In this document: in pieces, positions 16,184 to 51,849 of the stretch
How the letters are laid out: each line of letters starts with the position of its first letter
Position numbering within the stretch: position 1 is the stretch's first letter
Source: Candidatus Falkowbacteria bacterium
GTDB lineage: Bacteria; Patescibacteriota; Patescibacteriia; CAIXNZ01
NCBI GenBank assembly: GCA_963774955.1
Contig: CAVZGV010000004.1
Location: 296,716 to 360,715 of the forward strand
Direction: 5' to 3'
DNA: 64,000 nt
The notes under the pieces: model-generated
The model's input: only the letters and a program-made list of their open reading frames with translations
Databases searched by the model: none
What the model was told of the DNA's origin: nothing
Position numbers and translations under genes: made by a program

Positions 16184-16188
16184 CAACA

Positions 16189-28295: not shown

Positions 28296-28325
28296 GCAGG
28301 ATTTAAAGAACAATACAATTAAATA

Positions 28326-28361
28326 GAAAAAACACCTCTCGGAAACGGGGGTGTTTTTTTT
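28326..28361 (+). terminator. rho-independent terminator of rpoC (copy 1 of a duplicated roughly 35 bp sequence)
   Basis: aaaaaacacctctcggaaacgggggtgtttttttt. Confidence 0.7.
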
Positions 28362-28493
28362 GTATTAATTTTTATGATGATTTTATAAAAATTTCATCTG
28401 TTTGCGGTATAATTAAGTCAAATTATGGCTTTACTGCCGCCTGCGCTTAAGTTATAATTAGTACAGGTATGCTTAATTATTTTTTAAAGTTTT

Positions 28494-28769
28494 ATGACTC
28501 TCAAATCCGCGCATTTTTCTCAAAAACTGACAATCACCTTGTTAGTTTTTTTATTTATCTTTTCCCAGCCTGGCATTTTGCTGGCGGCCGAAGAAGCTGT
28601 AAATGACAATACCGTTTCGGTTAACACGACCGAATCCCCGGCCGAACCGGCCACTGACACTTCAGCTCAGCCGGCTGTAACTCCTGAAACACCGACAGCC
28701 CAGACGGTTCAGATCAGGCTACGGCTGATGCGGTCAAAGCTGACACGGAAACGCCAGATCAAGGCATGA
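28494..28769 (+). CDS. signal-peptide-bearing N-terminal segment, probably the true N-terminus of the giant RHS protein separated by a frameshift
   Basis: Signal peptide MTLKSAHFSQKLTITLLVFLFIFSQPGILLAAEE plus a PT-rich linker. The last 20 residues (RLRLMRSKLTRKRQIKA) look out of frame. The giant ORF frame upstream of its ATG reads linker-like sequence (DGSDQATADAVKADTETPDQG). Confidence 0.4.
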   Translation: MTLKSAHFSQKLTITLLVFLFIFSQPGILLAAEEAVNDNTVSVNTTESPAEPATDTSAQPAVTPETPTAQTVQIRLRLMRSKLTRKRQIKA

Positions 28770-31700
28770 ATACTTTAGACAGTTCCGGAGGAGAGGTGTA
28801 CGGAGACGTCTCCAATATTACTGATTCGCCCAAAACCAATAAATCAAATTTGGAAGTTGATCAGAACTCTGGTGCCTTATTATATAAATACCCGATACAA
28901 GTTCCTCCGGGCAGAAACGGCCTGCAACCTGACTTGGCTTTGAGTTACAATAGTCAGGATTTAAAATACGACAGTGAATTCGGTTATGGCTGGGGTATAA
29001 CTATTCCATACATTGAAAGGTTGCTTAAAAAAGGTATTGATAAGGCGTATACTGAAAATTATTTTACATCGTCTTTGAGCGGAGAATTGGAAGATGTTAG
29101 TTTGAGCGATGGGCATCACGGCACTTATGGCGCTAAAGTTGATAGCGGAGATTTTCTTAAATACGAGTTTAATACCAGTAACTATTGGTTGGTAACCGAT
29201 AAAAAGGGGACTGTGTACAAATTTGGATACAATGCTTCAGCTCGCCAGAATGATCCTAGTGACAGCTCACATGTGTTTAAATGGATGTTGGAGGAAGTCC
29301 GCGATACCAATAATAATTACATTAAATATGAGTATTATAAAGATAATGGTCAGATTTATCCCTCGGCGATAAAATATACCGGCTATAATACGACTGACGG
29401 AATTTTCGAAATAGATTTTTTAAGAGAAAGCCGGAGCAATGACTACGTTTCTTATAAAGAGGGTTTTGAAGCAACAACTGGTTATAGGATTTATGAAATC
29501 CAGGCCAAAGTTAGTGGGACATGGGCTAGAAAATATGAGCTGGACTATACGGCATCAAGTGAAAATGATTGGCAGGAATTATTAACTTCTATAACTGAAA
29601 GTGGCAATGACGGTAGTCAGACAATCAGTTTACCAGTTACTACGTTTACTTACCAAACGAATGGAGGATACGTTTTTTATACTCAGGATCAGAATGTTGA
29701 TTTTCCAACTAAAGCATATAATGCGATGTGGAACGGTCATGCCAGCAACGGCACTTTTTCAACTGATGCAAATGGCGACGGCCTATCCGATATTGTCCAA
29801 TATAAAGTAGGTTATACAAACTGCCAATATTCTTTAAGCAGAAGTTTTTTAAGTAACGGGAACGGTTGGGATGAATCAAGTGAATGGACTTCATTTAATT
29901 TAGCTAAAGAACAATATTGCCATAGTAATGGAGATTTTAGCGTATATTTAAGACCTGCGATTTTTATCGATATAAACGGAGATGGTTTATCTGATTTTGT
30001 GAAAAGTGGAATTAGATTAAATAACTCTGCTAATCAAGACTATGTAAGTATCAGCTGGAATATTCCCTTATCATTAACCGATGCCAATGGCTATGGAATT
30101 CAAGACTACGTTCATCTTGGAGATTTTAACGGCGACGGACTAGTTGATTATTTTGCTAAATATTACATAAATGGAAATTGGCATATGGATATTATGCCCA
30201 ATTTAGGTAATGGCTGGTATGTTGATAATACTTGGAGTTTCCCAAGTTATCTGAGCGATGGCATAATTTATAATCACGGCATTAAATTCGCGGATATTAA
30301 CGGTGATAGCCTGGACGATATATTGGTATCGCAGAATGATGACCAATACGGGACAATAAGAAAAGTATATTTAAACACCGGTGCCAAAAGTTGGGCGGAA
30401 ACAACTGATTTTACAATTTCTAGCAGCCTTGTTTTTTTTATCAGGCATACAAATCCCGATCAAAATATGGTTATGCCTATAGAATTTAATGATCTAAACA
30501 AGGACGGTTTAACTGATGTTATTTATGACGAGAGTGTTTATATAAATGACGGTTCGACCTTTATTGATACTACTGATATTACCTCTTTTTATAGCCCTTA
30601 TTTTGGTCAAATCTCCGGCCGAAATTTCATGGAAATAAACGGAGATGGTATGCCCGATTATTCCATATCCTCCAAGTCAGGCATTGATGAATCATATTGG
30701 GTCGGTTCCCAATATGAAAATTCAGAAGATTTAAGTAGTATTTCTAAATCGGTGTATATTAATCAAAAAAAGCCTTCGGGATTATTGATAGGTGTTGAAA
30801 ATTCCAAAGGCGGGTCAATGGAAGTTACTTACAAAGGTTCGGGTGAATACAAAGGTAGTAATGATAATTTACTAAATCCGCATTTGCCGGTGATTGTCCA
30901 GACCGTCTCCCAGATCACCTACAATGACGGCCTAAATAATTCATGGTCGGAAAATTACCAGTACGCCAACGGTGAATACTATTTTTCTGACTACCTGAAT
31001 CGCAAGCTGGCGGGATTTGGTTTGGTGACAAAGACTGATGCGGGAGGGAATGTTACGAAGTCATATTTTCATCAGGGGAATACTACTGACTCAAGTCATG
31101 GCGAATATTCTGATGATGTTTCCAAGATCGGCAAGGTTTATCGCGCAGAAGTTTATGATGACTCGGATAACTTATATTCAAAGTCCATTAATAAATGGGA
31201 AAATTATGATTTGGGGAATGACAGGGATTTTGTGAAGTTAACGCAAACGATTAGTTTTAGTTATGACGGTAATACAAGTCATAAGGACAAGGCTGAAACT
31301 TACACTTATGACAATGCGACCGGCAATTTGACGCAGAAAGTTACCTGGGGCGAGGTGACGGGTTCGGATAACGGCACGTACACGGACACCGGAACGGATA
31401 AATTTACGACTGATATAGACTATGCGGCCACTACGGGTAGCGCAGTCATTGGCTTGCCAAGCCAGGAGACGACTGAAGATCAAAGCAGTAATAAAGTTAA
31501 GGAAACCAAGTATTATTATGACAGTCTGACTTTGGGCAATGTGGATAAAGGCAATCTGACCAAACAGGAAATGTGGAAATCAGGCACCAGTTATATTGAT
31601 GTTGAAAAGACATATAATTCTTACGGCATAGTTACCCAGGAAAAGGATCCGCGCGATAAGACAACGGATTATACTTATGATTCATATAATTTGTATCCGG

Positions 31701-34700
31701 CGACTGTTACTAATGCGTTAGACCTGGATACTGATTATGAATATGATTATTCTTCAGGCAAGCCGACCCAGGTGACTGATCCTAATGGGCGGGTGTTTCA
31801 GACAGTTTATGATGCCCTGGACAGGGTAAAACAGGAAAAACAGCCGGATTTAACCACGCCGAGTACTTTGGTGGTTAAAACTGAATATACATACACTGAT
31901 AATACCGTACCGAGCAAAGTTCAGCAGACAAATAATCTGGATTCTTCAACGAGTTTTGATATTTATACTTATCTTGACGGTTTTGGACGAAAAATTCAGG
32001 AAAGAAAAGAGGCCGAGGCTTCAAATACATTTAGTGTCAAAGATTTTGCTTACAATGACCTTGGCCTGGTGGACAGGGAATCTTTGCCGTACTTTTCGAC
32101 CGGCACATCCAGAACAACCGCCACCACTGATAATTCGCTTTATACCAGTTACACTTATGATCCTTTGCAAAGAGTCGCCACCTCAACTAATGCAGTTGGC
32201 ACCACCACGAATACTTATGACGACTGGAAACTGACCATTACTGACGCGGAAAGCAATGTTAAGGATTTGTACAAAGATGCTTATGATAATTTAGTCCAGG
32301 TTGATGAACATAATGACTCAAGTACCTATACCACGACTTACGGGTATAATGGTCTGGGAAATTTATTAAATATTACTGATTCTCAGGATAATGTCAGGAA
32401 TTTTACTTATGACGGACTTGGCCGCAGATTAACAGCCGAGGATTTGCATGATCCTGAAGACGAATATTTTGGCGAGTGGACGTATGGTTATGATGATTCA
32501 GGTAATTTAACTTCCAGAACTGACCCCAATTCCCAGACAGTAAACTGGACTTATGATGATTTGAACCGCGTTTTGACTGAGGATTACACGGGTCAAAGCG
32601 GAACCGAAGTGGCTTATGTTTATGACACTGGAACGGACGGAATTGGCAGGCTTTATACGGCCACAACACCTGACGTGGTTACGACTCATACTTACAATCC
32701 GCTGGGCGGAGTGAAAACTGAAAATAAATACATTGATTCAACCAATTATCTGACCGAGTTTGCTTATGACCGCCAGGGAAACCAGACCTTGATTACTTAT
32801 CCGAGCGAAGATGAAGTTAAATACGAATACAACACGGCCGGGCTTTTGGAAAAGATTCAAAATAAACCAGCCGGTGAACAGTCTTTTACAGACCTGGTCA
32901 GCGATTATGATTATTCGCCTTTGGAGCAGGTAACTTATCAGGAAGACGCCAATGGCGTTAAAACCTTTAATACTTATGACGAGCAAAAATTGTACCGCCT
33001 AAAAGAGAAAATCACAGCCAGTCCGGATGAAGGTGATTATGGTGAAGGGATGTTTAATATGGCAATGGCTGTCCCGAGCGCAGGTGTCATTCAGAGCGGT
33101 AGCGAAGAATCCATTGCCCCCGCCACAACCGGAATCCTTTCAGCGCTCGGCGTTACTGCGGATTCGCCGTTGACGAGCGCAGGTGTCATTCAGAGCGATA
33201 GCGTGGAATCCATTGCCCCCGCCACAACCGGAATCCTTTCAGCGCTCGGCGTTACTGCGGATTCTCCCTTAACCCCGCTCATAAACAGTGTAACCATGGC
33301 TACGGAAAGTTTAGGTCTGGTTAAGGATCCTCAAATAGAACCGTTACCGGTTAAGCCTGGGGAAAAAGTCCAGCGGGATTTCCTCGGCCGGCCGGTTGAT
33401 TATTCCAATTATCCCAAAGATACCACGGTTTACATTAAAACAGATCCAAACGCCAAATCTCAGGAATTGCCTAAAGAAGCGATTGAAGCCTATGATAAAG
33501 CGGCTGCCAAGCCTCAACCCGAGCCTGAATTAAAGACTTTATTGCCCCAGGAGGCTGTTGATTATTACAACAGTCAGGCTCAAACATCACCAGGCGACGG
33601 CTCCATGATGCTTTTGGAAAGCGTTAATCCACCTAATCCGTCAACGAATTTACAAACTGAAAATTTATGGAAAAGCGACAATATAATCTACAATTCCGGT
33701 TTTGAAGACGGATTTGCATACTGGCAGTGGCAAAATAAGCAGGGCGATACGCATACGGAAGATTGCACAGTTTCCTACAGCGGTTCCTGTTCGGAAAAAG
33801 TTACCATTGCCACTTCAGGTAATTTTTGGGAAACCCAAGTTTACCAGGTTTTAAGGCTGGATGAGAATATTAATTACAAACTGCGTTTTAAGGCCAAAGC
33901 TTCAACAGCCATCACATTTAGCCTGGAAGCCGTGCAAAACCACACGCCATTCAATGACCTGGGCTTGTGGAAAGGGGATTTAAGCATTGGCACTGACTGG
34001 CAGGAATACGAATATACTTTTACTGCTTTGGCAAGCGATCAGGACGCCAGAGTAACCTTTTATCTGGGCGCCAATGCGGCAGATTACTGGTTTGACGATA
34101 TTGAACTCATACCCGATGCTCTCAATATGCTGAAAAATACCAGTTTTGAAAACAATCTTGATAATTGGGAATTTTATGATTACAACAGCACCAGCGAAAA
34201 TACCCGAGACTGCGCAGAAGCGTCTGACGGCGACTGCAATAACAAGGTGGAAAATATGCAGAGCGGTGAATGGTGGCAGGTTTCCCTTAACCAGCCGATT
34301 TCAGTGGTGGCTGACCAGACCTATATTCTGACGTTTTACGCTCATTCCAATTACGATACTCGAATAGCCAAGGTGGCAATCGCCAAGAATTACAGTCCCT
34401 GGACTGATTTGACCGCCATTGCCGAATTTCACACCAACTGGAACGGCGGTTTTGCCAAATACCAGATTGAGCTGACCCCGAACGCCACTGAAAGCAACGC
34501 CCGCCTGATCTTTTATCTGGGCGATGATCAGGGCTGGATTAAGCTGGACAGTCTGCGCTTATGGCCTCAGCAGGCGACTAAGGTTTCAGATTCAACCCCT
34601 GAATTCTCCGCGATTTATGATGATCCGGATTCCGGGGATTATGCAACAGATTACCAGATACAATTAATCAAATATGATGGGAACTGGTCGAACCCCATCT

Positions 34701-36454
34701 GGGATAGTGGGAAGACATCGTTTAATTCTAACGTTTTAGAAGGTAACAGGACTGAAGACATTATTTATGACGGCGACGCCTTGCCTTTGGACGGCATGAA
34801 ATACAAGTGGCGCATCAAGTTATGGGACGAGTCGGATAATGAGGGTGTCTGGACTAATGGCGAGGACTTTTTCATTATGAATGGCAAGCGGATTCAGGAT
34901 TTAAGTTACACCTACGATGATGTGGGCAATATTACGCAGATTATTGACGAGTCTGAAACCAACACGAAGAAAGCCGCCAACTACGCTTATGATGATTTAT
35001 ATCGCTTAACATTGGCCACAATTACGGATTCCGCGACTGATGAGGATTACACTCAGACGTACACTTATGATTCATTAGGTAATTTTACAGACAGGTCAGA
35101 TGTCGGGGATTATGATTATGACGGCAATACCGGGACAAGTTATGCCAATCCGCATGCGGTTACCAGCGTACAGAATGACGCAGTAGCCATAAACTATGAT
35201 CATAATGGTAATTTAACCAGTGAGATTTTAAGCCAGTATCAATGGACGATCTTTGAGGCGGAGTGGGATTACAATAACCGGATGATAAGTTCAGGAGGCT
35301 GGTCAGCAGAAACCGTGTACAGCTATGATCACAGCGGGCAGAGGATTGTGAAGGACACCGGCGATGAATATAGCGGTATTACTACTATTTATGCGAACAA
35401 GTACTACAACGAGCGGACGAACAAGGAAACGTCGGAATTGACCAAGACATTGAATATTTATGACAATAAAGGGAATTTAGTTGCTACGGGCGAAGAAGTC
35501 GGAGAAACTAGTAATATTTATTACGTAAATGGTGACCATTTGGGAAGTTCCAGCGTTATGACGACTGATACAGGGGACATGGAACAGGTGGTTGACTATT
35601 TTCCGTATGGAAATATGCGGTTTAATGAGCAGAGAGTACAAAATGAAAGCTATGATCAGAAGGAAAAATTTTCCGGAAAAATTTTCGATCAGGATGCAGC
35701 TGGGTTGTCATATTTCGGAACCAGGTACTATTCTGGTGAAGCAGGGAAGTTTATTAGTGAGGATCCTGTGTTTTTAGCAGTTGGTGATAATGAAAATATA
35801 AAAAGGTTAGCAAGAATTGAATTACAGCAGTATTTATCCAATCCGCAGATAATGAATAGTTATTCATATTCCTATAACAATCCTTTGATTTATAAGGATG
35901 GTGATGGTAACTTTGCATTTTTGATCCCCATTGCTGCTTATGCAGTCGCTACTGCACCAGTATGGGTACCAGCAGTAATTACCTGGTCTGCCGCCACTAC
36001 TTTAGCCATTAGCACACCACTTGTCGGGGGACAAATATATTCATATGCTAAAGGAGATAATGCAACTGGGAATCAGATGGGTGATGTCGCGATGGGGGTT
36101 ATGGGGATTGAGGCAGGTGTAGCTGGCGGTATTATGTCCATAGATAAAATGTTGAGTTCATCTTATAATAAGCCGGCAAATAGAACAAAATCTAACAGTA
36201 AATCAGCCCCCCTTTTTTCAAGTCATGCACAAATGCGTATGGAGCAAAGAGGAATTTCGATAGATCAAGTTAAGAATGTAATGGAAAATAATAAACCATT
36301 TAATTATTATCACGAAAATAATTGGAAAACTGGGTATTATGATCAATCTAGTAAAGTATTCGTCGCACAAGCAAATGAAAGTGGGCAGGTCATAACCGTA
36401 ATAAACGATGTAAGTCCGCAATATATTAGTAATTTACAATCACTAAAACCATGA
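28766..36454 (+). CDS. giant TcB/TcC-like RHS-repeat polymorphic toxin (2562 aa): SpvB N-domain, FG-GAP repeats, RHS/YD repeats, 2 CBM4/9-like modules, RHS core, DUF4258-like C-terminal toxin
   Basis: SpvB-like LYKYPIQVPPGRNGLQPDLALSYNSQ...GYGWG. Six DxNGDGxxD FG-GAP repeats. Many YD repeats. NSGFEDG...W CBM-like modules. RHS core YYVNGDHLGSSSVMTTD...DYFPYGN...RYYSGEAGKFISEDP. C-terminal HAQMRMEQRGISIDQVKNV... resembles DUF4258. Confidence 0.85.
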   Translation: MNTLDSSGGEVYGDVSNITDSPKTNKSNLEVDQNSGALLYKYPIQVPPGRNGLQPDLALSYNSQDLKYDSEFGYGWGITIPYIERLLKKGIDKAYTENYFTSSLSGELEDVSLSDGHHGTYGAKVDSGDFLKYEFNTSNYWLVTDKKGTVYKFGYNASARQNDPSDSSHVFKWMLEEVRDTNNNYIKYEYYKDNGQIYPSAIKYTGYNTTDGIFEIDFLRESRSNDYVSYKEGFEATTGYRIYEIQAKVSGTWARKYELDYTASSENDWQELLTSITESGNDGSQTISLPVTTFTYQTNGGYVFYTQDQNVDFPTKAYNAMWNGHASNGTFSTDANGDGLSDIVQYKVGYTNCQYSLSRSFLSNGNGWDESSEWTSFNLAKEQYCHSNGDFSVYLRPAIFIDINGDGLSDFVKSGIRLNNSANQDYVSISWNIPLSLTDANGYGIQDYVHLGDFNGDGLVDYFAKYYINGNWHMDIMPNLGNGWYVDNTWSFPSYLSDGIIYNHGIKFADINGDSLDDILVSQNDDQYGTIRKVYLNTGAKSWAETTDFTISSSLVFFIRHTNPDQNMVMPIEFNDLNKDGLTDVIYDESVYINDGSTFIDTTDITSFYSPYFGQISGRNFMEINGDGMPDYSISSKSGIDESYWVGSQYENSEDLSSISKSVYINQKKPSGLLIGVENSKGGSMEVTYKGSGEYKGSNDNLLNPHLPVIVQTVSQITYNDGLNNSWSENYQYANGEYYFSDYLNRKLAGFGLVTKTDAGGNVTKSYFHQGNTTDSSHGEYSDDVSKIGKVYRAEVYDDSDNLYSKSINKWENYDLGNDRDFVKLTQTISFSYDGNTSHKDKAETYTYDNATGNLTQKVTWGEVTGSDNGTYTDTGTDKFTTDIDYAATTGSAVIGLPSQETTEDQSSNKVKETKYYYDSLTLGNVDKGNLTKQEMWKSGTSYIDVEKTYNSYGIVTQEKDPRDKTTDYTYDSYNLYPATVTNALDLDTDYEYDYSSGKPTQVTDPNGRVFQTVYDALDRVKQEKQPDLTTPSTLVVKTEYTYTDNTVPSKVQQTNNLDSSTSFDIYTYLDGFGRKIQERKEAEASNTFSVKDFAYNDLGLVDRESLPYFSTGTSRTTATTDNSLYTSYTYDPLQRVATSTNAVGTTTNTYDDWKLTITDAESNVKDLYKDAYDNLVQVDEHNDSSTYTTTYGYNGLGNLLNITDSQDNVRNFTYDGLGRRLTAEDLHDPEDEYFGEWTYGYDDSGNLTSRTDPNSQTVNWTYDDLNRVLTEDYTGQSGTEVAYVYDTGTDGIGRLYTATTPDVVTTHTYNPLGGVKTENKYIDSTNYLTEFAYDRQGNQTLITYPSEDEVKYEYNTAGLLEKIQNKPAGEQSFTDLVSDYDYSPLEQVTYQEDANGVKTFNTYDEQKLYRLKEKITASPDEGDYGEGMFNMAMAVPSAGVIQSGSEESIAPATTGILSALGVTADSPLTSAGVIQSDSVESIAPATTGILSALGVTADSPLTPLINSVTMATESLGLVKDPQIEPLPVKPGEKVQRDFLGRPVDYSNYPKDTTVYIKTDPNAKSQELPKEAIEAYDKAAAKPQPEPELKTLLPQEAVDYYNSQAQTSPGDGSMMLLESVNPPNPSTNLQTENLWKSDNIIYNSGFEDGFAYWQWQNKQGDTHTEDCTVSYSGSCSEKVTIATSGNFWETQVYQVLRLDENINYKLRFKAKASTAITFSLEAVQNHTPFNDLGLWKGDLSIGTDWQEYEYTFTALASDQDARVTFYLGANAADYWFDDIELIPDALNMLKNTSFENNLDNWEFYDYNSTSENTRDCAEASDGDCNNKVENMQSGEWWQVSLNQPISVVADQTYILTFYAHSNYDTRIAKVAIAKNYSPWTDLTAIAEFHTNWNGGFAKYQIELTPNATESNARLIFYLGDDQGWIKLDSLRLWPQQATKVSDSTPEFSAIYDDPDSGDYATDYQIQLIKYDGNWSNPIWDSGKTSFNSNVLEGNRTEDIIYDGDALPLDGMKYKWRIKLWDESDNEGVWTNGEDFFIMNGKRIQDLSYTYDDVGNITQIIDESETNTKKAANYAYDDLYRLTLATITDSATDEDYTQTYTYDSLGNFTDRSDVGDYDYDGNTGTSYANPHAVTSVQNDAVAINYDHNGNLTSEILSQYQWTIFEAEWDYNNRMISSGGWSAETVYSYDHSGQRIVKDTGDEYSGITTIYANKYYNERTNKETSELTKTLNIYDNKGNLVATGEEVGETSNIYYVNGDHLGSSSVMTTDTGDMEQVVDYFPYGNMRFNEQRVQNESYDQKEKFSGKIFDQDAAGLSYFGTRYYSGEAGKFISEDPVFLAVGDNENIKRLARIELQQYLSNPQIMNSYSYSYNNPLIYKDGDGNFAFLIPIAAYAVATAPVWVPAVITWSAATTLAISTPLVGGQIYSYAKGDNATGNQMGDVAMGVMGIEAGVAGGIMSIDKMLSSSYNKPANRTKSNSKSAPLFSSHAQMRMEQRGISIDQVKNVMENNKPFNYYHENNWKTGYYDQSSKVFVAQANESGQVITVINDVSPQYISNLQSLKP

Positions 36455-36681
36455 AAATCACTTATGACAAATCTATAGATGCGGTATACATATATTTAAT
36501 TCCTAATCAAAGAATCCACCCGGGATGGTCTAAAAAAACTTATCCTTGTGACCCCAAAGAAGTAAATGGCATGATTAATTTAGACTTTGATAATAAAGGT
36601 AGGCTGGGTGGGATTGAAATAATTGGAGCTAGTCAAAAATTACCAAAAGAAATTATCGATTCAGCTGAAGTTATTGGTTAG
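36451..36681 (+). CDS. DUF2283-like immunity/antitoxin protein (cognate to the DUF4258 toxin tip)
   Basis: MKITYDKSIDAVYIYL...INLDFDNKGRLGGIEIIGAS matches the DUF2283 pattern. ATGA overlap with the toxin stop. Confidence 0.6.
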   Translation: MKITYDKSIDAVYIYLIPNQRIHPGWSKKTYPCDPKEVNGMINLDFDNKGRLGGIEIIGASQKLPKEIIDSAEVIG

Positions 36682-36789
36682 TCCACAGTAATCGGTTTAG
36701 TTTTCATAAATACTGATAAATAGAGTTGTTCAAAATAGAATGAGTAAATAGCTAAGTTCTTTTAAAACTTAACAATTTAATTAATTTAA

Positions 36790-38605: not shown

Positions 38606-38632
38606 ACTTTAAAAATTTGATATTTTAAATAT

Positions 38633-39592: not shown

Positions 39593-39598
39593 CAAAAT

Positions 39599-42500: not shown

Positions 42501-42955
42501 TAGATGAGGTTACTATTCTGTCGCATAGTGATGCGAATAATATTTACTTGAATGGAGATAAAGAAAAACTTACCACAACACCAAATATGTTTAATGTAGA
42601 TCCCAAAACCCTAGGAACCTCAATTGATTCATTAAGTAAAAAAGATATCGGTCAGATAAATTTATATACATGCGAAGGGGGTAATATAAGCCACGCCACG
42701 AATTTAGCCAAAGCCTTTGCTACTTCACAGCAAACTACTGTGATGGGTTTTGATGGTAGATTATCTTTTGTTCCATTTTTAGGAAGTCCCATGTTTTCAC
42801 TTCGAGGGCAATTAAAACATTACAATGAATACGGCAGAGCTCCGTTAGGTTGGGTTACTTACAGTAAAAATGGAAGCTATAGTGTCGGAAATGATTCACA
42901 GCGTCCGCCTTATATTTATAAGTGGATAGGTTATTTTGCTGGTTTTAATAATTAA
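39599..42955 (+). pseudogene. second secreted RHS-like toxin gene (signal peptide + CBM-like modules + RHS core + distinct C-terminal toxin), disrupted by indels around 41400-41620
   Basis: ORFs 39599..41428 and 41624..42955 are colinear with giant protein residues about 1530-2400. Region 41400-41620 has scrambled/indel versions of sequence that is intact at 46908-46990. Canonical NPMIYLDPTGL precedes the toxin tip. Confidence 0.6.
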
Positions 42956-42967
42956 TTAGATATATAT

Positions 42968-43522
42968 ATGGATAATTTAGTCATAAATTTTATATTTTTA
43001 TCAGTGCCTTTATTTGTTTCTGTTTTTATTGTCCTACTAATCTTTACTTTAAGGACATTGAGACAGAAACGAAACATTTATCAAGGTAATATGAAAATGA
43101 AAATTGGGTTGCTTGTTATTATTATAATAATACTAGTTATCCCTTTCCTATATAGTTATTTTGACGGTTTATCGTTAAGGCTGGAATATCTAGGCATGAA
43201 TAAACTAGGTACGGAAAGTCCTAATATGAATTATGGTGATTGGGGTTTTATAAGATCCGAAGAAGAACAAAAAAATATAGAAAATAAATTAGATATTAAT
43301 TTGACCTACGATATAAATTACTCGAAGGAAATGGAACTTGTAAGTTACGGTAGAAAAATTTATAAAATAAATTATAGTTTGTTCTCCAGGTGGTTCAATA
43401 ATAATTTGCCGGTTACAATATTTGCCGACAATAAGAACGAATCGGATAGTATTTTTATTTATAAGGTTGATGATAACTTCTCACCTAGTGAACAGGGCAG
43501 TAGTTATCGAATTAACAGATAG
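42968..43522 (+). CDS. hypothetical membrane-anchored protein (immunity candidate)
   Basis: N-terminal TM segments; AT-rich; located after the toxin tip. Confidence 0.35.
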   Translation: MDNLVINFIFLSVPLFVSVFIVLLIFTLRTLRQKRNIYQGNMKMKIGLLVIIIIILVIPFLYSYFDGLSLRLEYLGMNKLGTESPNMNYGDWGFIRSEEEQKNIENKLDINLTYDINYSKEMELVSYGRKIYKINYSLFSRWFNNNLPVTIFADNKNESDSIFIYKVDDNFSPSEQGSSYRINR

Positions 43523-43569
43523 AGCTTTATTACTCGGTTGTATCAAATAATAATTGTATATATAAAATT

Positions 43570-43920
43570 ATGTTCGACAAAACAAAACAATTCTTCGTTA
43601 ATTTAAAAAGGCCTTATCGTTATTTAGTCTTTATTTTGAGTTATTTCCTGTTGAATCTAATATTATTGATTTTGGCAATTTATATTAAGAGCTTATCCTC
43701 ATCTTTATATGAGATTGTATTCATCTTTTACTTTTTCGCATTATTGTTGATTGTTGCAGCTGTTTTGGGATGGGGATATGTTTTAATGTCGTTATCCAAG
43801 GAAATAAAAGATATGACATTCTTTGCATTAACTATAATCTTAGCGGTTATTTTTTTCATAATTTGGCCTATGATTTTATATTACTTATCGGTTTATGGCT
43901 GGGATGTGTTAAGTGGATAG
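43570..43920 (+). CDS. small multi-TM membrane protein (immunity candidate)
   Basis: Roughly four predicted TM helices in 116 aa. Confidence 0.4.
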   Translation: MFDKTKQFFVNLKRPYRYLVFILSYFLLNLILLILAIYIKSLSSSLYEIVFIFYFFALLLIVAAVLGWGYVLMSLSKEIKDMTFFALTIILAVIFFIIWPMILYYLSVYGWDVLSG

Positions 43921-43953
43921 AAATATTTTAAGAATAATTAATAAAAAAATGAG

Positions 43954-44352
43954 ATGAGGTTTTTTATGTCCGGAGAAGTAAGTGGCGAAGCTCACGAAAA
44001 ATTCAGAGTATTAATGCTCGAAATTGAAAAACAAATTAAAAGTTTGATGAATATTAATGATTATGGGGATGCAGTTTCTGAGATTGCCATAATACCTACT
44101 ATATTTTCCGCTGAATTTTTAACAGCTTTGCCCTATAAAGAACGCAAGCGATTTTCACCTAAAACGAAAGTAGGTGAGTTTAGATTAAGGATAGATTACG
44201 ATAAATTTGTTAAGGCAAACGAAGATAGTAAACGTAGATTAATAGTGCAAAATATTATTGATTCAATCAGGATTCTAAAAACAAAAGTTAAAAAAGGATT
44301 TGATGGCGACAAATTGGAAAAAGATATTAGAGAATTATTCAAAATAGAATAG
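43954..44352 (+). CDS. hypothetical protein (immunity candidate)
   Basis: 132 aa, SD-like GAGATGAGG upstream. No domain recognised. Confidence 0.4.
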   Translation: MRFFMSGEVSGEAHEKFRVLMLEIEKQIKSLMNINDYGDAVSEIAIIPTIFSAEFLTALPYKERKRFSPKTKVGEFRLRIDYDKFVKANEDSKRRLIVQNIIDSIRILKTKVKKGFDGDKLEKDIRELFKIE

Positions 44353-44394
44353 ACGGATAATTCGGTTCTTTTAAAATTAAATAAATTAATTAAT

Positions 44395-46220
44395 ATTACC
44401 AAGTTCAAATAATAAAGTATGACGGGGCGTGGTCGAACCCTGTTTGGGACTCTGGCAAAACAAGTTTTACAAGTTCAGTTTTAGAAGGCGATAGGACGGA
44501 GGATATTGCGTATGACGGCGATGCCTTGCCTTTGGACGGTATGAAGTACAACTGGAGGATAAAGTTATGGGACGAATCTAATAATGAAGGCGCCTGGACT
44601 AATGGCGAAGATTTTTTCATCATGAATGGCAAGAGGATTCAGGACTTGTCTTATTCGTATGACAACGTTGGCAACATTGCCCAGATAATTGATCAATCGG
44701 AGACAAATACCAGAAAAACAGCCGAATACGAATATGACGAATTATATCGCCTAATTTCAGCGACAATTACGGATTCCGCCACAGAAGAGGATTACACCCA
44801 GACCTATACTTATGATTCTTTGGGTAACACTACTTATCGTTCTGATGTAGGCGATTATGATTATGAGGGCAATACAGGTTCAAATTACGCCAATCCGCAT
44901 GCGGTAACTAGCGTACAGAATGACGCAGTGGTAATAAACTATGACCAAAATGGAAATCTGACCGACGAAGTTTTAAGCCAGTATCAATGGACTATTTTTG
45001 AGGCGGGGTGGGATTATAATAACCGAATGGCGACATCAGGAGGTTGGTCGGATTCTGCTGTTTATAAATATGACCATAGCGGACAACGAATATGGCAGGA
45101 GACCGGAGGCCAGTATTATGGCGTAAAAACAATTTACCCGAATAAATACTATAATGAAAGGACGGATAAGTTTCTGGCTGAGACTGTTGACACCTTGCAA
45201 ATATATGATAATAAAGGGCAGTTAATAGCTACCGGGGAGGAAAACGGAGAAACTTCAAATATTTACTTTGTCCATAATGATCATCTAGGTTCTTCCAGTG
45301 TAATGACAAAAAGTGACGGGAATGTTGAGCAGGTAATCGATTACTACCCGTTTGGTGATATCAGATTCAACGAAAGAAGTGATCCTGATAATAATTCCTT
45401 TGACGAGCGCGTCAAGCATTCTAACCATTTGTACGATGACAATACGTCATTAACATACATGGGGGCTAGGTATTACACAGGAGCCGGGGGAAAATTTGCG
45501 AGTCAAGATGAGGCATATTTAGCTGTTGGTAGTAGTCAATTAAGGGATCTAACTAATAGAAGTTTAAGCGAATATTTAGGCGATCCTCAGAATTTAAATT
45601 CTTATACTTACGCACGAAACAATCCTATAATAAATATTGACCCCACTGGCAATTTTTGGTGGTATGGATTTTATAATTGGAGCGGATATAATGGTTTCAG
45701 TGGTTTCATGATGAAGGCGGGGGAAGTTTTAGGCGGTCATAATCGAGCGATGAATGTAATTCAGCAGAATCAAACTATAATAAATGAAACAAGCGATAAA
45801 TATGGGGTTAATCCCAATTTAACCAACGCAATTATTTATGAAGAGCAGTCTCATCTAACTCCAGATGAAGTTGTGGGAAGAGAGCAACTATTGCCTGATG
45901 TAGGGAGTGGTGGCGTGGGTGTAATGCAAGTAAGTGCAAAAGTCGGTGAAGAATTTGGGTATAGTAAAAGTGATTTAGCTCGCGATCCGGTTAAGAATAT
46001 AAATGCGGGAATTCAGAATTTATCTAAAGAGCAGAATGTATCTAATTCAGCAGCAGTTACAGCAAGTAAATATAATAATAGCCAAGCTACTAATATTACA
46101 AATTATGGATTAAGAGTAGAAGCTCAATTAAACAATCCCAGTTATAACCGCAATATTATAACTGATGTTAAGAATTCGGTTTCAGCGATTAAATCACTGT
46201 ATAATTTAATAAGTAAATAA
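44395..46220 (+). CDS. orphan RHS-core cassette with lytic transglycosylase (SLT)-like C-terminal toxin; longest ATG-ORF is 44526..46220
   Basis: Homology to the giant gene starts at ccaagttcaaataataaagtatgacgggg. The tail after NPIINIDPTGN contains IYEEQSHL...GSGGVGVMQVS, an SLT-like catalytic-Glu context. Confidence 0.6.
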
Positions 46221-46221
46221 T

Positions 46222-46563
46222 ATGACTAATAAAAATTCGAAGTTATTTATTATTACAATAGTTACGTTAATTCTTTGGATATTGCCTTTCGTTATTTATT
46301 TCTTTGAGAAAAGTATGGGCTTTTTATCTGATCAGAAAAGTTGGTATGAATTAGGAATAAATCATGGGCCTTGGAGAGGGAGGATAGAAAGTATAATTTT
46401 ATTTTATCCACTTATAGTAGTGGCAATTACTACTCTAATTCTTGCCACACTTCAGATAGTAAGGAAAAATTTTAAGATTTTTGTTTTACTCTTCCTTTTG
46501 TTTATTGTTCAGCTATTATTAATTTTTATCCAAGTATACTTTTTAATTTGGATGATTGATTAA
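46222..46563 (+). CDS. small 3-TM membrane protein (immunity candidate for the SLT-like toxin)
   Basis: ATG overlaps the toxin stop (TAATATG). Confidence 0.4.
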   Translation: MTNKNSKLFIITIVTLILWILPFVIYFFEKSMGFLSDQKSWYELGINHGPWRGRIESIILFYPLIVVAITTLILATLQIVRKNFKIFVLLFLLFIVQLLLIFIQVYFLIWMID

Positions 46564-46569
46564 ATTAAG

Positions 46570-47655
46570 ATGTTTATAAATACCAAATATTACCAAGTTC
46601 AAATAATAAAGTATGACGGGGCCTGGTCGAACCCCGTCTGGGACTCTGGCAAAACAAGTTTTACAAGTTCAGTTTTAGAAGGCGATAGGACGGAGGATAT
46701 TGCGTATGACGGCGATGCCTTGCCTTTGGACGGTATGAAGTACAACTGGAGGATAAAGTTATGGGACGAATCTAATAATGAAGGCGCCTGGACTAATGGC
46801 GAAGATTTTTTCATCATGAATGGCAAGAGGATTCAGGACTTGTCTTATTCGTATGACAACGTTGGCAACATTGCCCAGATAATTGATCAATCGGAGACAA
46901 ATACCAGAAAAACCGCTGAATACGAATATGACGAATTATATCGCCTAACGTCCGCCACGATTACGGACAGCGCCACTGAAGAGGATTACACCCAGACATA
47001 TACTTATGATTCATTGGGCAACACTACTTATCGTTCTGATGTAGGCGATTATGATTACGAGGGCAATACAGGTTCAAATTATGCCAATCCGCATGCGGTT
47101 ACCAGCGTACAGAATGACGCAGTGGTCATAAATTATGACCAAAATGGAAATCTGACCGACGAAGTTTTAAGCCAGTATCAATGGACTATTTTTGAGGCGG
47201 GGTGGGATTATAATAATAGGATGATAACAAGCGGAGGCTGGTCTGCAGATACCGTGTACAGCTATGATTACAGCGGGCAGAGAGTCTTTATGGAAACCGG
47301 TGATGAGTATTCGGGCAAGGTCAATATTTATGCTAATAAGTACTATAGTGAAACAACTGACAAGGAAGCATCGGAACTTACCAAGACTCTGTACGTCTAT
47401 GATAATAAAGGCAATTTAGCGGCCACCGGGGAAGAAAAAGGAGAAACCAGCAATCTTTACTTTGTCAGTGGAGATCATTTAAGTTCGTCCAGTGTCATGA
47501 CAACGGATCAAGGCGAAATAGAGGAAGTGATTGATTATTATCCTTACGGCAATTTGAGGTTTAATGAAAGAAGCGATGCGGAGAATGGGTCCTTTGATGA
47601 AAAGAAAAAGTTTTTGGAAAGATTAATTATTCTTAATATATTAATTAATAATTAA
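46570..47655 (+). pseudogene. truncated orphan RHS-core cassette (no toxin tip)
   Basis: Colinear with the other cassettes but ends ...NERSDAENGSFDEKKKF then junk. Confidence 0.55.
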
Positions 47656-47667
47656 CTTTTCAAAAAT

Positions 47668-48285
47668 ATGAAATTTTATTACATTTTTGAGCAAGAAGAA
47701 GATTTGAAATATGTTCCTTTAGTGAGTAATAAATATACAGTTTACGGGTTGAAAGATTATGAACTTGAGGAAGGCAAATTTATTAAGAGATGGGATAACC
47801 GAAATGTGTTGTATTATGACAAAGAAGGTATTTGCGAGGATTTTTTATCAAACACGCTATTTGCTCCGGTTATTTCCCAAAGAATTAAAGATATTCTTGA
47901 AAAAGAGCTAGGGATAAAAGGTATTCAATTTTTTCCTATATCTATTAAGCACACCAAGAGTGATAAGGTTGTGTATGGTTATTATGTTATGAACGTTACA
48001 AATTTAGTTAGAGATGCCCTTGATAGGGAAAAATCTATATTTAGTGTTACGGAGTTACCAAAACTGAATATCAGATCAGAAACTGTGATGTTTTATACGT
48101 TAGATGTAGATAGGTTAAGGGGACAAGACGTTTTTCGTGTGGGAGATGGTAGATTATTTGTATCTGAAAGAGTAAAGGATGCATTTGATAAATCTGGTGT
48201 GACGGGCATAGCTTATGGAGGGACTTGGCTATCCGGTGATAAAAATAGACCTTGGGAGAAAAAGAAGTTAAAATATAACTTATGA
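47668..48285 (+). CDS. hypothetical protein (possible orphan immunity gene)
   Basis: 205 aa; no recognisable domain. Confidence 0.35.
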   Translation: MKFYYIFEQEEDLKYVPLVSNKYTVYGLKDYELEEGKFIKRWDNRNVLYYDKEGICEDFLSNTLFAPVISQRIKDILEKELGIKGIQFFPISIKHTKSDKVVYGYYVMNVTNLVRDALDREKSIFSVTELPKLNIRSETVMFYTLDVDRLRGQDVFRVGDGRLFVSERVKDAFDKSGVTGIAYGGTWLSGDKNRPWEKKKLKYNL

Positions 48286-48289
48286 GATA

Positions 48290-48485
48290 TTGTTTTATAC
48301 AATTAATCAAATATGATGGGACCTGGTCGAACCCCATCTGGGACTCTGGCAAAACAAGTTTTACAAGTTCAGTTTTAGAAGGCAACAGGACTGAAGACAT
48401 TATTAAAAATAGGAAAACCCCCGGCTTTAGCCGGGGAGACTTGAAAAGCTTTGAGCGTTCCTTTGGGGCGCGTATATTTGCTTAA
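48290..48485 (+). pseudogene. remnant of a further RHS cassette junction (about 110 bp of homology) ending in a terminator hairpin
   Basis: caattaatcaaatatgatgggacctggtcgaacccc...gttttagaaggcaacaggactgaagacattatt, then cccccggctttagccgggg. Confidence 0.5.
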
Positions 48486-48537
48486 ATTAAAAAAATCGGC
48501 TATAATATTGATATAATACAAAATTTAACCTAAATAT

Positions 48538-48822
48538 ATGTCTAAAATAAACTTAGAATTTAAATTACCCGTGTCTTTTTTGCGTGAAGGAAATAAGTAC
48601 ATCGCTTATACTCCTGCGCTAGATTTATCTACTTCCGGCAAAACTTATAAAGAAACAAAAAAAAGATTTGAAGAAATTTCGCAGATTTTTTTTGAGGAAC
48701 TAATAAAAGAGGGTACTGTAGATAGCGTTTTGACTGATTTAGGCTGGAAAAGGGTTCGGTCCAGATGGAATCCGCCGGTTTTAATTTCCCAAGAATCCCA
48801 GCTAATTAAAATGGCTGCCTAG
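48538..48822 (+). CDS. hicB: HicB-like antitoxin (UPF0150/DUF1902-like)
   Basis: KYIAYTPALDLSTSGKTYKETKKRFEE pattern; adjacent to HicA. Confidence 0.5.
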   Translation: MSKINLEFKLPVSFLREGNKYIAYTPALDLSTSGKTYKETKKRFEEISQIFFEELIKEGTVDSVLTDLGWKRVRSRWNPPVLISQESQLIKMAA

Positions 48823-48827
48823 TTTAT

Positions 48828-49058
48828 ATGCCTCATTTAACTCCTATCGCCTGGAAGAAATTTGAAAAATTTTTATTATTTGTAGGCTGTAATTTTACAA
48901 GGGAAAAGGGCGACCATCGGGTATATTGGCGCGAAGGACTGAAAAGACCTGTAGTTATTCCGCGAAGCGGGGATTTACCAATTTTTATCATAAGAAATAA
49001 TTTAAGAGTATTGGGAATTAGTCCAGATGAATACATTGAAATATTGAAACAGGTATAA
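48828..49058 (+). CDS. hicA: HicA-like mRNA interferase toxin (YcfA family)
   Basis: REKGDHRVYWREGLKRPVVIPRSGDLPIFIIRNNLRVLGISPDEY matches the GSH...P.h PF07927 pattern. Confidence 0.6.
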   Translation: MPHLTPIAWKKFEKFLLFVGCNFTREKGDHRVYWREGLKRPVVIPRSGDLPIFIIRNNLRVLGISPDEYIEILKQV

Positions 49059-49145
49059 GAAAAACCGCTCATGATATGGGGCGGTTTTTTTGTTCGAAAT
49101 ATAGTATAATTTCTTCAGGCTTGATGAGCGAAAGGAAATTATATC

Positions 49146-49544
49146 ATGCATGATTATCAAAGCTTATCTCATTCAAAATGGGACTGCAAATATCATTTGG
49201 TTTTTATTCCCCAGGGTCGGCGAAAAATACTTTTCGGCAAAATAAGAAAGTACTTGGGTAATATTTTCCACGAACTGGCAAAGTATAAAAGTTGCACAAT
49301 TTTAGAAGGACATTTTATGTTGGATCATGTTCATATGTGCATTCAGATACCGCCCAAATTTTCCGTGGCTTCAATCGTGGGCTATCTCAAGGGTAAAAGC
49401 GCCATCATGATCGCCAGGCAGTTTGGCGGCAAAGAAAGAAATTTTAACGGCGAACATTTTTGGGCGCGCGGTTATGCTGTTTCAACCGTGGGATTTGAAG
49501 TTAATCGGATTAGGCAATATATTAGGGAGCAGGATTTGCATTAA
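49146..49544 (+). CDS. tnpA: IS200/IS605-family TnpA (Y1 transposase)
   Basis: YHLVFIPQGRRKIL, HVHMCIQIPPK (HuH) and GYAVSTVG (catalytic Y); 132 aa. Confidence 0.8.
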   Translation: MHDYQSLSHSKWDCKYHLVFIPQGRRKILFGKIRKYLGNIFHELAKYKSCTILEGHFMLDHVHMCIQIPPKFSVASIVGYLKGKSAIMIARQFGGKERNFNGEHFWARGYAVSTVGFEVNRIRQYIREQDLH

Positions 49545-49628
49545 CTAATTATAAATGATACTCATCAGGCATATAAAAGAAAAAGCGTTTAGATATAAAG
49601 GTGAAAAATTACTTTTTAATATAGATAT

Positions 49629-49666
49629 AAAAAACACCTCTCGGAAACGGGGGGCGTTTTTTTTTA
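49629..49666 (+). terminator. rho-independent terminator (copy 2 of the duplicated rpoC-terminator sequence)
   Basis: aaaaaacacctctcggaaacggggggcgttttttttt; 34/35 identical to 28326-28361. Confidence 0.65.
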
Positions 49667-49898
49667 AGTCTAAAGTATAAAGTCTAAGATCTAAAGTAGG
49701 TATAGTTGAATTAGTTATTTCTAAAATTAGCCTTTAGCCTTGTTTGGTTTATTTTGGTCAAATCAGGCTGACAAATACAGGGATACATTCTTGGTATTTA
49801 TCTAATATTAGCTAAAATGTAATCTGGGGGTATTGACAAGTCTCTTTAGATATGATATAGTGGCAAATCACGCTGAAAAAAGCTATTAGGCGTCCTCC

Positions 49899-51413: not shown

Positions 51414-51414
51414 C

Positions 51415-51848: not shown

Positions 51849-51849
51849 A

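What the first reader, a model, noticed from the sequence alone, without database searches (positions are those of the whole stretch)
28326..49666. The island is bracketed by two copies of the same roughly 35 bp terminator sequence
aaaaaacacctctcggaaacgggggtgtttttttt at 28326-28361 and aaaaaacacctctcggaaacggggggcgttttttttt at 49629-49666 are near-identical direct repeats, 21.3 kb apart. They enclose exactly the toxin island plus HicBA and the IS200 TnpA. This is the pattern expected if the island integrated at the rpoC terminator with target duplication, or if it can be lost by homologous recombination between the repeats.
Basis: seen in the sequence. Interest (0 to 1): 0.5.

Follow-up and report, generated by a model that had tools for sequence, protein, structure and literature searches.

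The report
Duplicated rpoC terminator flanking a toxin island
A 21.3 kb Rhs toxin island in an uncultured Patescibacteria genome sits at the rpoC transcription terminator and carries a near-identical copy of that terminator at each edge, a real insertion scar of a familiar kind made by a mechanism I could not establish.

Summary
Two direct copies of one terminator hairpin lie at 28327-28361 and 49629-49665. They share a 25-nt exact core and 41 of 47 aligned positions, with none expected by chance. Nine other terminator-like sites in the window do not resemble them.

The left copy is the native rpoC terminator. Four relatives (RpoC 81-89% identical) carry one orthologous hairpin at that spot, followed by DNA homologous to what follows the right copy here. 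None has an Rhs island there, so 28362-49628 is a lineage-specific insertion bracketed by a duplicated target.

No integrase occurs anywhere in the 64 kb. The IS200 at the right tip is complete and carries hicBA as a passenger. Its family makes no target duplications, and the right copy lies 58 nt beyond its right-end motif.

Two related loci show the same pattern with other lengths: L010, a 14-nt shared terminator arm plus T-run around a 15 kb Rhs island, and L011, a 463-nt duplication around an IS200-tipped insert. Variable, imperfect repeats fit recombination-based insertion-duplication better than a transposase or a fixed att site.

Copy number across the source genome could not be tested. 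This is a new member of a known kind, of moderate interest.

The parts
24408..28295 (+). rpoC (RNA polymerase beta'), the last gene before the left repeat
   Evidence: All five Rpb1 Pfam domains. Homologues named beta' in Patescibacteria/Parcubacteria.
28327..28361 (+). Left repeat copy, the native rpoC intrinsic terminator (A-run, hairpin, T8)
   Evidence: Orthologous hairpins at the same position in L001, L002, L004 and L005, differing by pair-preserving changes in the stem.
28362..49628 (+). Inserted island of 21,267 bp, absent from this site in four relatives
   Evidence: blastn synteny break, flank tests, no Rhs hit in the relatives' rpoC-hup loci.
28494..28769 (+). 91-aa ORF overlapping the start of the Rhs gene; function unknown
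   Evidence: No Pfam hit. Weak sub-threshold NCBIfam hit only.
28766..36454 (+). Main Rhs/YD-repeat toxin gene, 2562 aa (SpvB, FG-GAP, RHS repeats, DUF4258 C-terminus)
   Evidence: Closest homologues are at most 61% identical, all in Patescibacteria-type contigs.
36722..48401 (+). Array of four orphan rhs C-terminal cassettes with immunity genes (Tox-REase-7, Imm44, SLT, Imm11) and a final truncated remnant at 48275-48401
   Evidence: Repeat families D1-D8, Pfam, alignment.
48413..48468 (+). IS200 left end with GC hairpin CCCCCGGCTTTAGCCGGGG, preceded by ...ATAG
   Evidence: Homologous to the conserved left end about 75-100 nt upstream of tnpA in many unrelated IS200 loci. Compensatory G/C to A/T change in L008, L011 and L013.
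48538..49058 (+). hicB (48538-48822) and hicA (48828-49058), passenger genes inside the IS200
   Evidence: HicA_toxin 37.1 bits against a cut-off of 27. They lie between the IS200 left end and tnpA. Homologues of about 75% nt identity lie outside any IS in L010.
49060..49091 (+). Terminator-like hairpin after hicA and upstream of the tnpA promoter
   Evidence: (D16). A counterpart is present in L007 and L008 but not in L011 or L013.
49146..49544 (+). IS200/IS605-family Y1 transposase TnpA, 132 aa
   Evidence: PF01797. NF033573 at 137 bits against a cut-off of 55. Not a REP-associated transposase: 25.9 bits against 80.
49560..49570 (+). IS200 right-end motif ACTCATCAGGC, complementary to the loop GGCTTGATGAG of the hairpin covering the tnpA ribosome-binding site
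   Evidence: Conserved in L007, L008, L013 and in the canonical right end of about 60 family members.
49571..49628 (+). 58-nt AT-rich spacer between the IS200 right-end motif and the right repeat; origin unknown
   Evidence: No significant similarity to the 3' end of rpoC in any genome (p>=0.37).
49629..49665 (+). Right repeat copy: same hairpin with one extra G and a T-to-C change that leave an A.C mismatch in the stem, then T9
49667..49930 (+). Native downstream DNA, including two tandem near-consensus promoters (49833-49861 and 49899-49927)
   Evidence: Homology to L001 and L002 post-terminator DNA. Sequence read. The same promoter pair is present in L001, L004 and L005.

Best explanation
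The repeat is the native rpoC intrinsic terminator, duplicated when a 21.3 kb Rhs toxin island carrying an IS200 at its right tip was inserted immediately beside it.

Shown: the left copy is the orthologue of the single rpoC terminator in relatives. The DNA between the copies is absent from that site in four relatives. The DNA beyond the right copy is the native continuation.

Inferred: the duplication arose by recombination-based insertion-duplication, not by a transposase staggered cut. The most likely route is a single crossover between the chromosomal terminator and a circular or episomal copy of the island that already carried the same terminator. A replication template switch at the hairpin is a possible alternative route.

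Consequences, also inferred: rpoBC still ends at a terminator. Island transcripts are stopped before the strong promoters and structured RNA downstream. The 25-nt identical core gives a substrate for rare precise loss of the island.
For: The repeat is real and not generic.

Empty sites exist in four relatives. L001, L002, L004 and L005 each have one hairpin 15-35 nt after the rpoC stop, with differences from the window that keep the stem paired. For example, L002 ACACTTCTCAGCAATGAGGGGTGT against the window's ACACCTCTCGGAAACGGGGGTGT.

Synteny breaks exactly at the repeats. Only the flank to the right of the right copy is native.

No recombinase is present in the island or elsewhere in the window.

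A homologous island with the same IS200 left junction (...TTATTAAAAATAG|GAAAACC) lies at a different site, before holB, in MAG GCA_026395685.1. That MAG's rpoC site is empty. tnpA is 77% nt identical and rpoBC 77.7%, which fits an old island that was relocated.

Two parallel cases exist. The L010 Rhs island sits at the terminator upstream of mshE, with GGGGGTCTTTTTTT on both sides, and L011 shows the uninterrupted site. L011 has a 463-nt, 95% identical duplication flanking a 1.5 kb IS200-tipped insert.

Repeat lengths of 14, about 40 and 463 nt, all imperfect, argue against a fixed-length target duplication or a fixed att core.
Against: Campbell-type integration needs a circle that already carries the terminator, so the very first insertion is not explained.

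Homology of 25-47 bp is at the lower limit for RecA-dependent recombination (general knowledge).

The right boundary of the insert can only be placed between 49571 and about 49725. The right copy could therefore have arrived with the insert.

The L010 repeat is short and of low complexity. L011 is a single metagenome contig.
Confidence: 0.6

Rival explanations
1. The island is a non-autonomous integrative element. A site-specific recombinase encoded elsewhere in the genome integrates it at an att site overlapping the rpoC terminator, and the 25-nt identical core is the crossover region.
For: An identical core flanked by diverged arms is the classic attL/attR pattern. The target is the 3' end of a conserved gene. 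Empty sites exist in relatives.
Against: No integrase in the island or in the 64 kb window. The related islands at mshE and holB sit at unrelated sequences, and the repeats in L010 and L011 are 14 and 463 nt long. That does not fit one att core.
Confidence: 0.13
2. The right copy belongs to the IS200 right end, as its second subterminal hairpin. TnpA used or targeted the look-alike rpoC terminator, so the similarity reflects transposase recognition or sequence conversion, not target duplication.
For: In about 60 family members the right end reads motif, then hairpin CCACCCGCTCTGCGGGGGGTG, then TCTGACT. The repeat shares CACC...CGGGGGG(T/C)GT with that hairpin (p about 0.006-0.02). In L008 a hairpin plus T-run follows the motif directly. 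The IS200 right end is the island boundary at four different chromosomal sites. The left copy is preceded by ATAG, like the IS200 left end.
Against: The hairpins after the motif are unrelated in sequence and spacing in L008, L011 and the window (0, 27 and 58 nt) and absent in L007 and L013, whereas the left-end hairpin is conserved in the four Patescibacterial elements where it can be read (window, L008, L011, L013). The left copy is clearly the orthologous rpoC terminator. Repeat and left end are not significantly similar (p=0.2). The family inserts without duplication and depends on short single-stranded stretches of about 1.5-2 kb (PMC5027513), which is hard to reconcile with 21 kb. L010 shows the same pattern without any IS200.
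Confidence: 0.12
3. The 35-mer is a multi-copy terminator or REP-like element of this genome, and its presence on both sides of the island is incidental.
For: Terminators in this clade share a generic form: A-run, C/T-rich arm, G-rich arm, T-run. The whole genome could not be searched.
Against: Only two copies in 64 kb and none among 9 other terminator-like sites. No exact core match in 80 fetched metagenome loci, in JGI metagenomes or in IMG/VR, and only one unrelated hit in GTDB representative genomes. The TnpA is IS200-type, not REP-associated. The copies sit exactly at the synteny break.
Confidence: 0.07
4. The island with both repeats is ancestral at this site, and the relatives lost it by recombination between the repeats, which leaves exactly one terminator.
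For: A single terminator is what such a deletion would leave. The island lineage is old.
Against: It needs losses in all four sampled lineages. The relative that still has the homologous island carries it at another locus, with its rpoC site empty. The 25-nt perfect core suggests a duplication younger than the divergence between these species.
Confidence: 0.06
5. Assembly artefact: the island was joined into the rpoC locus through the short repeat.
For: The source is a metagenome-assembled genome.
Against: A 25-37 nt repeat is shorter than a sequencing read and than the larger k-mers used in assembly. Even a false join would require the island to be flanked by this sequence at its true position. 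The contig is 455 kb long.
Confidence: 0.02

Closest known systems
Genomic islands or integrative elements flanked by direct repeats at the 3' end of a conserved gene (att-type; integrase-less cis-mobilizable forms are also described)
   Same: A large accessory island of toxin genes, direct repeats of tens of bp that duplicate the 3' end region of a housekeeping operon, and an empty site in relatives.
   Different: No integrase. The target is an intrinsic terminator, not a tRNA or coding 3' end. Repeat length differs widely between related loci (14, about 40 and 463 nt).
Campbell-type (single-crossover) insertion-duplication
   Same: The insert is flanked by two imperfect copies of the homologous target segment. 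The length of the duplication is set by the homology carried, so it varies (window, L011).
   Different: Known mainly from plasmids and laboratory constructs. No circular intermediate was observed here, and the homology in the window is very short.
IS200/IS605 elements (IS200, IS608, ISDra2)
   Same: A complete IS200 sits at the island tip: Y1 TnpA, the family's conserved left end with its hairpin, a hairpin over the ribosome-binding site, the right-end motif, and a left flank ending in (A/T)TAG.
   Different: It carries hicBA as a passenger. Its canonical second right-end hairpin is missing or replaced. The family makes no target duplication, so it does not explain the repeat.
Rhs / YD-repeat polymorphic toxin loci with orphan cassettes
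   Same: A main rhs gene followed by displaced C-terminal toxin/immunity modules that share the core-end repeat.
   Different: The host is Patescibacteria. The array ends in an IS200 in at least three lineages. The location differs between close relatives.
Elements that target terminators or palindromes (group IIC introns; Tn7 at the glmS terminator; IS elements that insert in REP sequences)
   Same: The insertion lies immediately beside an intrinsic terminator hairpin.
   Different: None of their enzymes or RNAs is present, and they do not duplicate the whole hairpin.

Membership tests
Intrinsic (Rho-independent) terminator | Stable GC-containing hairpin directly followed by a T/U run, downstream of a stop codon on the transcribed strand | tested here: met
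   -21.5 and -18.9 kcal/mol with z = -6.8 and -4.7, followed by T8 and T9. The left copy starts 31 nt after the rpoC stop. Termination activity itself was not measured.
Intrinsic (Rho-independent) terminator | Position conserved in orthologous loci, with changes that preserve the structure | tested here: met
   L001, L002, L004 and L005 each have one hairpin plus T-run at the same place, and the stem differences keep the pairing.
Genomic island with att-type direct repeats | Direct repeats at both boundaries and an empty site with one copy in relatives | tested here: met
   empty sites.
Genomic island with att-type direct repeats | A cognate integrase or recombinase encoded at one end | tested here: not met
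   Pfam scans of the main ORFs of the island and of most of the rest of the window found no tyrosine or serine recombinase. An enzyme acting in trans cannot be excluded.
Transposon target-site duplication | Short fixed-length duplication (2-15 bp), identical copies, terminal inverted repeats, DDE transposase | tested here: not met
   The repeat is 35-47 nt at 41/47 identity. No inverted repeats at the island ends. The only transposase in the island is a Y1 HUH enzyme.
IS200/IS605 insertion sequence (the element at 48413 to about 49585) | Y1 HUH TnpA | tested here: met
   NF033573 equivalog at 137 bits against a cut-off of 55; PF01797.
IS200/IS605 insertion sequence (the element at 48413 to about 49585) | Conserved subterminal hairpin-bearing left and right ends | tested here: inconclusive
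   The left end is clearly homologous to that of many family members. The right-end motif is present, but the canonical second hairpin and the TCTGACT end are not.
IS200/IS605 insertion sequence (the element at 48413 to about 49585) | The left end abuts a specific tetra- or pentanucleotide, with no target duplication | tested here: met
   Left flanks are ATAG (window, L008, L011) and TTAG (L013). The rule is stated in PMC5027513.
REP/BIME-type extragenic palindromes | Many copies per genome and association with a REP-type transposase | tested here: inconclusive
   Two copies in 64 kb. The TnpA scores 25.9 against a cut-off of 80 for the REP-associated model. The genome-wide count was not possible.
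Xer/dif-exploiting integrative elements | Flanking 28-bp dif-like sites at the replication terminus | tested here: not met
   Cumulative GC skew rises across the rpoC-island part of the window without the reversal expected at a terminus. The repeat is a terminator hairpin placed after rpoC. No formal dif model was run.
Rhs polymorphic toxin locus | RHS/YD repeat shell protein with a variable C-terminal toxin, a downstream immunity gene and orphan modules | tested here: met
   RHS_repeat, SpvB, DUF4258, Tox-REase-7, Imm44 and Imm11. Five to six copies of the core-end repeat.

The most novel reading that the evidence does not exclude
Rhs toxin islands of this Patescibacteria clade may move between chromosomal sites by a recombinase-independent (possibly TnpA-assisted) pathway that lands at intrinsic terminators and duplicates all or part of the target. 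In this reading the IS200 right end defines the right edge of the mobile unit. The terminator repeat in this window would be one scar of that pathway, alongside L010 (14 nt) and L011 (463 nt).
Probability: 0.2. Interest if true: 0.65.

Novelty: new member of a known kind. Interest (0 to 1): 0.4.

Why it matters
The repeat dates and delimits a horizontally mobile 21 kb interbacterial-toxin island in a phylum with tiny genomes, where little is known about how accessory DNA moves. It shows that the island was placed so that the essential rpoBC operon and the strongly promoted unit downstream each keep a terminator between themselves and the island. Together with two related loci, it hints that terminators are preferred landing sites and that insertion goes with a variable-length duplication of the target. 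If that pattern holds, it would give a simple sequence signature for finding such islands and their empty sites in metagenomes. The repeat taken alone is an ordinary island-boundary scar.

Tried and rejected
Exact-protein look-ups of the window's RpoC, HU and the 100% identical database entry found no contig.

The 20-nt repeat core gave one unrelated Bacteroidales hit in GTDB representative genomes, none in JGI metagenomes and none in IMG/VR. The IS200 left-end hairpin pattern gave none in IMG/VR.

I could not reach the left end of the homologous island in GCA_026395685.1. Its Rhs protein was not among the returned homologues, and the gene starts about 10,023 nt from tnpA, just beyond the 10 kb flank limit. 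The last look-up (P0129, locus L091) hit an unrelated integrase/Rep context.

I tested whether a remnant of the rpoC 3' end precedes the right copy. It does not (p>=0.37).

I tested whether the repeat resembles the IS200 left end. It does not (p=0.2).

The motif AAGTCTAAAG after the right copy looked island-specific, because it is shared with L008. It turned out to be a generic intergenic motif.

The 'conserved 57-nt motif' first looked like a feature of the Rhs array. It is the IS200 left end.

L011's cargo has no similarity to Rhs. The link between TnpA and Rhs therefore holds for the window, L008 and L013 only.

L007, L008 and L013 contain no detectable flanking duplication within the short stretches available.

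Literature searches on IS200 and terminators, and on Patescibacteria and Rhs, returned nothing specific.
Full report
**1. The observation**

The two quoted sequences are in the window on the + strand, at 28327-28361 and 49629-49665. The copies share a 25-nt exact core, AAAAAACACCTCTCGGAAACGGGGG. That core occurs only twice in the window even with three mismatches allowed, against zero in 100 shuffles.

The similarity extends to 45-47 nt: 87% identity, and 41 of 47 columns with score 65 against a shuffle maximum of 33. The differences lie at the edges. There are three in the roughly 10 nt before the A-run. In the right copy there is also an extra G and a T-to-C change at the base of the 3' arm, which leave an A.C mismatch in the stem.

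Both copies fold as hairpins followed by a T-run. A simple hairpin-plus-T-run scan finds 11 such sites in the window, and only these two resemble each other. The repeat is real, non-random and not this window's generic terminator.

**2. What lies between the copies**

- rpoB (20993-24370) and rpoC (24408-28295) precede the left copy.
- A 91-aa ORF and a 2562-aa Rhs protein (SpvB, FG-GAP, RHS repeats, DUF4258) open the island.
- Four orphan rhs C-terminal cassettes follow, with Tox-REase-7, Imm44, SLT and Imm11, and then a truncated remnant at 48275-48401.
- HicB, HicA and an IS200 TnpA close the island.
- No integrase or other recombinase occurs in the island or elsewhere in the 64 kb.
- The organism belongs to Patescibacteria/Parcubacteria, judging by its RpoC homologues.

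**3. Empty sites in relatives**

The source genome could not be retrieved. Contigs encoding RpoC proteins 81-89% identical could (L001, L002, L004, L005/L006). All have this order: rbfA, DHH, clpP, rpoB, rpoC, a 4-6.7 kb gene-poor stretch, hup, ymdB, rny. None has an Rhs gene there.

blastn shows window 24378-28359 continuous with rpoC plus terminator in L001, and window 49752 onward continuous with the DNA after the terminator in L002. Each relative has one hairpin plus T-run 15-35 nt after the rpoC stop. The stem differences keep the pairing, for example L002 ACACTTCTCAGCAATGAGGGGTGT. The left copy is therefore the native rpoC terminator.

Flank tests gave three results:
- DNA after the left copy (28362-28493) is unrelated to the relatives' post-terminator DNA (p>=0.11).
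- DNA after the right copy (49667-49790) is related to it (p<0.003 against L001 and L002).
- DNA before the right copy (49545-49628) is not a remnant of the rpoC end (p>=0.37).

So 28362-49628 is an insertion, and the terminator is duplicated around it. The right boundary can only be placed between 49571 and about 49725.

**4. The IS200 at the right tip**

The TnpA is an IS200/IS605 equivalog and not a REP-associated transposase. Its closest relatives (78-86% identity) were fetched with their flanks.

A 57-68 nt block at 48400-48467 first looked like part of the Rhs array. It is the family's left end. About 60 unrelated IS200 loci carry GGTAAGCCACTGGTTCGACCAGTGAGACTTGAAAAG[GC]TTTGA[CG]CGTTCC about 75-100 nt upstream of tnpA. 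The Patescibacterial version, GAAAACCCCCGGCTTTAGCCGGGGAGACTTGAAAAGCTTTGAGCGTTCC, differs between loci by a compensatory G/C to A/T change in the hairpin.

The window's element therefore runs from 48413 to about 49585 and carries hicBA as a passenger between the left end and tnpA. L008 carries a 101-aa ORF there, L013 a Panacea-domain pair, and L011 nothing.

The right-end motif ACTCATCAGGC (49560-49570) is conserved. The canonical second hairpin and TCTGACT end seen in other members are not. The right repeat copy starts 58 nt beyond the motif.

**5. The island has changed position**

In MAG GCA_026395685.1 the rpoC site is empty (L004). A homologous Rhs array ending in the same IS200 sits in front of holB (L008). 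It has the same left junction, TTATTAAAAATAG|GAAAACC.

tnpA is 77% nt identical between the two genomes and rpoBC is 77.7%. This fits an island inherited from their common ancestor and later relocated. In L013 an Rhs remnant plus IS200 abuts the ligA promoter. In L007 the IS200 abuts a glyS T-box leader.

The IS200 right end therefore coincides with the island edge at several unrelated sites. That is suggestive but unexplained.

**6. Two parallel insertion-duplications**

L010 holds a 15 kb Rhs island with no IS200. It lies between small zinc-ribbon ORFs and mshE. Its left side has the native hairpin AGACCCTCGGTCGGGGGTCT plus a T-run. Its right side has a hairpin with a different 5' arm but the same GGGGGTCTTTTTTT, followed by the native mshE promoter.

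L011 is the same locus without the Rhs island. It shows a single terminator directly followed by that promoter. L011 also contains a 1.5 kb insert made of a 149-aa extension fused to MshE residues 1-130, a 125-aa membrane ORF, an IS200 and a hairpin. That insert is flanked by a 463-nt, 95% identical duplication of the T-run, the promoter and the first 130 codons of mshE. The right-hand copy continues as an intact mshE.

The three duplications of 14, about 40 and 463 nt are all imperfect and all begin at or in a terminator.

**7. How it most likely arose and works**

A staggered-cut target duplication is unlikely, given the variable lengths, the non-identical copies and the absence of a suitable enzyme. 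IS200/IS605 elements insert 3' of a tetra- or pentanucleotide through single-stranded intermediates limited by the roughly 1.5-2 kb of single-stranded DNA at replication forks (PMC5027513). From general knowledge, they make no duplication. A fixed att core does not fit the three different targets and lengths.

The pattern that fits all three loci is insertion-duplication by recombination. One route is a circle carrying the island plus a piece of right-flank DNA, which crosses over once with the chromosomal copy. The other is a replication template switch at the hairpin. This step is inferred and was not observed, and it leaves the first arrival at each site unexplained.

Functionally, also inferred:
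- The left copy still ends rpoBC transcription.
- The right copy shields the downstream promoters and RNA from island transcription.
- The 25-nt core could support rare precise excision.

**8. Rivals**

- A recombinase acting in trans (0.13).
- The right copy as part of the IS200 right end (0.12). The repeat's G-rich arm resembles the canonical right-end hairpin. However, the hairpins after the motif are unrelated in L008, L011 and the window, and L010 shows the pattern without an IS200.
- A multi-copy terminator family (0.07); not testable genome-wide.
- Ancestral presence with repeated loss (0.06).
- Misassembly (0.02).

**9. Comparison and verdict**

This is a genomic island bounded by a duplicated target, a known kind of feature. 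The less usual aspects are that the target is the rpoC intrinsic terminator, that no recombinase is present, and that related loci show the same signature at other terminators with very different repeat lengths.

I file it as a new member of a known kind, interest 0.4. The more novel reading is a terminator-directed insertion-duplication pathway for Rhs islands in Patescibacteria, possibly involving the IS200. It is not excluded, and I give it a probability of about 0.2.

Noticed in passing
window 49971-50103 (+); also L001 from 14423, L002 from 8161, L004 from 14414, L005 from 14298: A structured RNA of about 135 nt lies just downstream of two tandem near-consensus promoters (49833-49861 and 49899-49927) and is conserved after the rpoC terminator in all five genomes. 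RNAalifold predicts a closing stem (AUAUGGGGGU/ACCUCCAUAU) plus three hairpins: 51 pairs, 13 of them with compensatory double changes among only 5 sequences. No Rfam family matches it, even at E<=10.
   Followed up: partly
window 49667-53630; equivalent stretches in L001, L002, L004, L005: The 4-6.7 kb between rpoC and hup is GC-rich (0.44-0.52, against 0.38-0.41 for rpoC) and gene-poor in all five genomes. Its ORFs have no Pfam or NCBIfam hits, and the 274-aa ORF at 50589-51413 is only 40% identical to its one detectable counterpart, in L002. Short conserved blocks recur within it, for example 50448-50505 and 52124-52218. Its nature is unknown.
   Followed up: partly
window 10335-18200: A second lineage-specific insertion lies between vanW (8277-10223) and clpP (18317-18922, minus strand), which are adjacent in L005 (L004 has one extra ORF between them). 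It contains a fragment of an IS256/Mutator-family transposase (10335-11150, minus strand), a TrmB regulator, an amidohydrolase and DFP/flavoprotein-aldolase genes. GC reaches 0.50.
   Followed up: partly
window 48413 to about 49585; L008, L013, L011: The IS200 carries passenger genes between its left end and tnpA: hicBA here, a 101-aa ORF in L008, a SocA/Panacea-domain protein plus a 138-aa ORF in L013, and nothing in L011. In L010 the hicBA homologues (about 75% nt identity) lie outside any IS, on the other side of the Rhs island.
   Followed up: yes
window 49118-49128 and 49560-49570; same in L007, L008, L013 and about 60 other IS200 loci: The loop of the hairpin that covers the tnpA ribosome-binding site (GGCTTGATGAG) is complementary to the right-end motif (ACTCATCAAGCC) across the whole family. 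This suggests a conserved pairing between the 5' and 3' ends of the transcript or of the single-stranded element.
   Followed up: no
L011 1199-2038: An in-frame fusion joins the first 130 residues of the pilus ATPase MshE to an unrelated 149-aa C-terminal extension. It is followed by a small membrane ORF and the IS200, while an intact mshE is restored downstream by the 463-nt duplication.
   Followed up: partly
window 49666-49700, 60105, 60194; L004 4656-4709; L007 802; L008 3465: Degenerate intergenic repeats of the type AAGTCTAAAG/GAAGGCCGAAGG and TTAGCCTTTAGCC recur in spacers after terminators and before promoters in these genomes. Their role is unknown.
   Followed up: no
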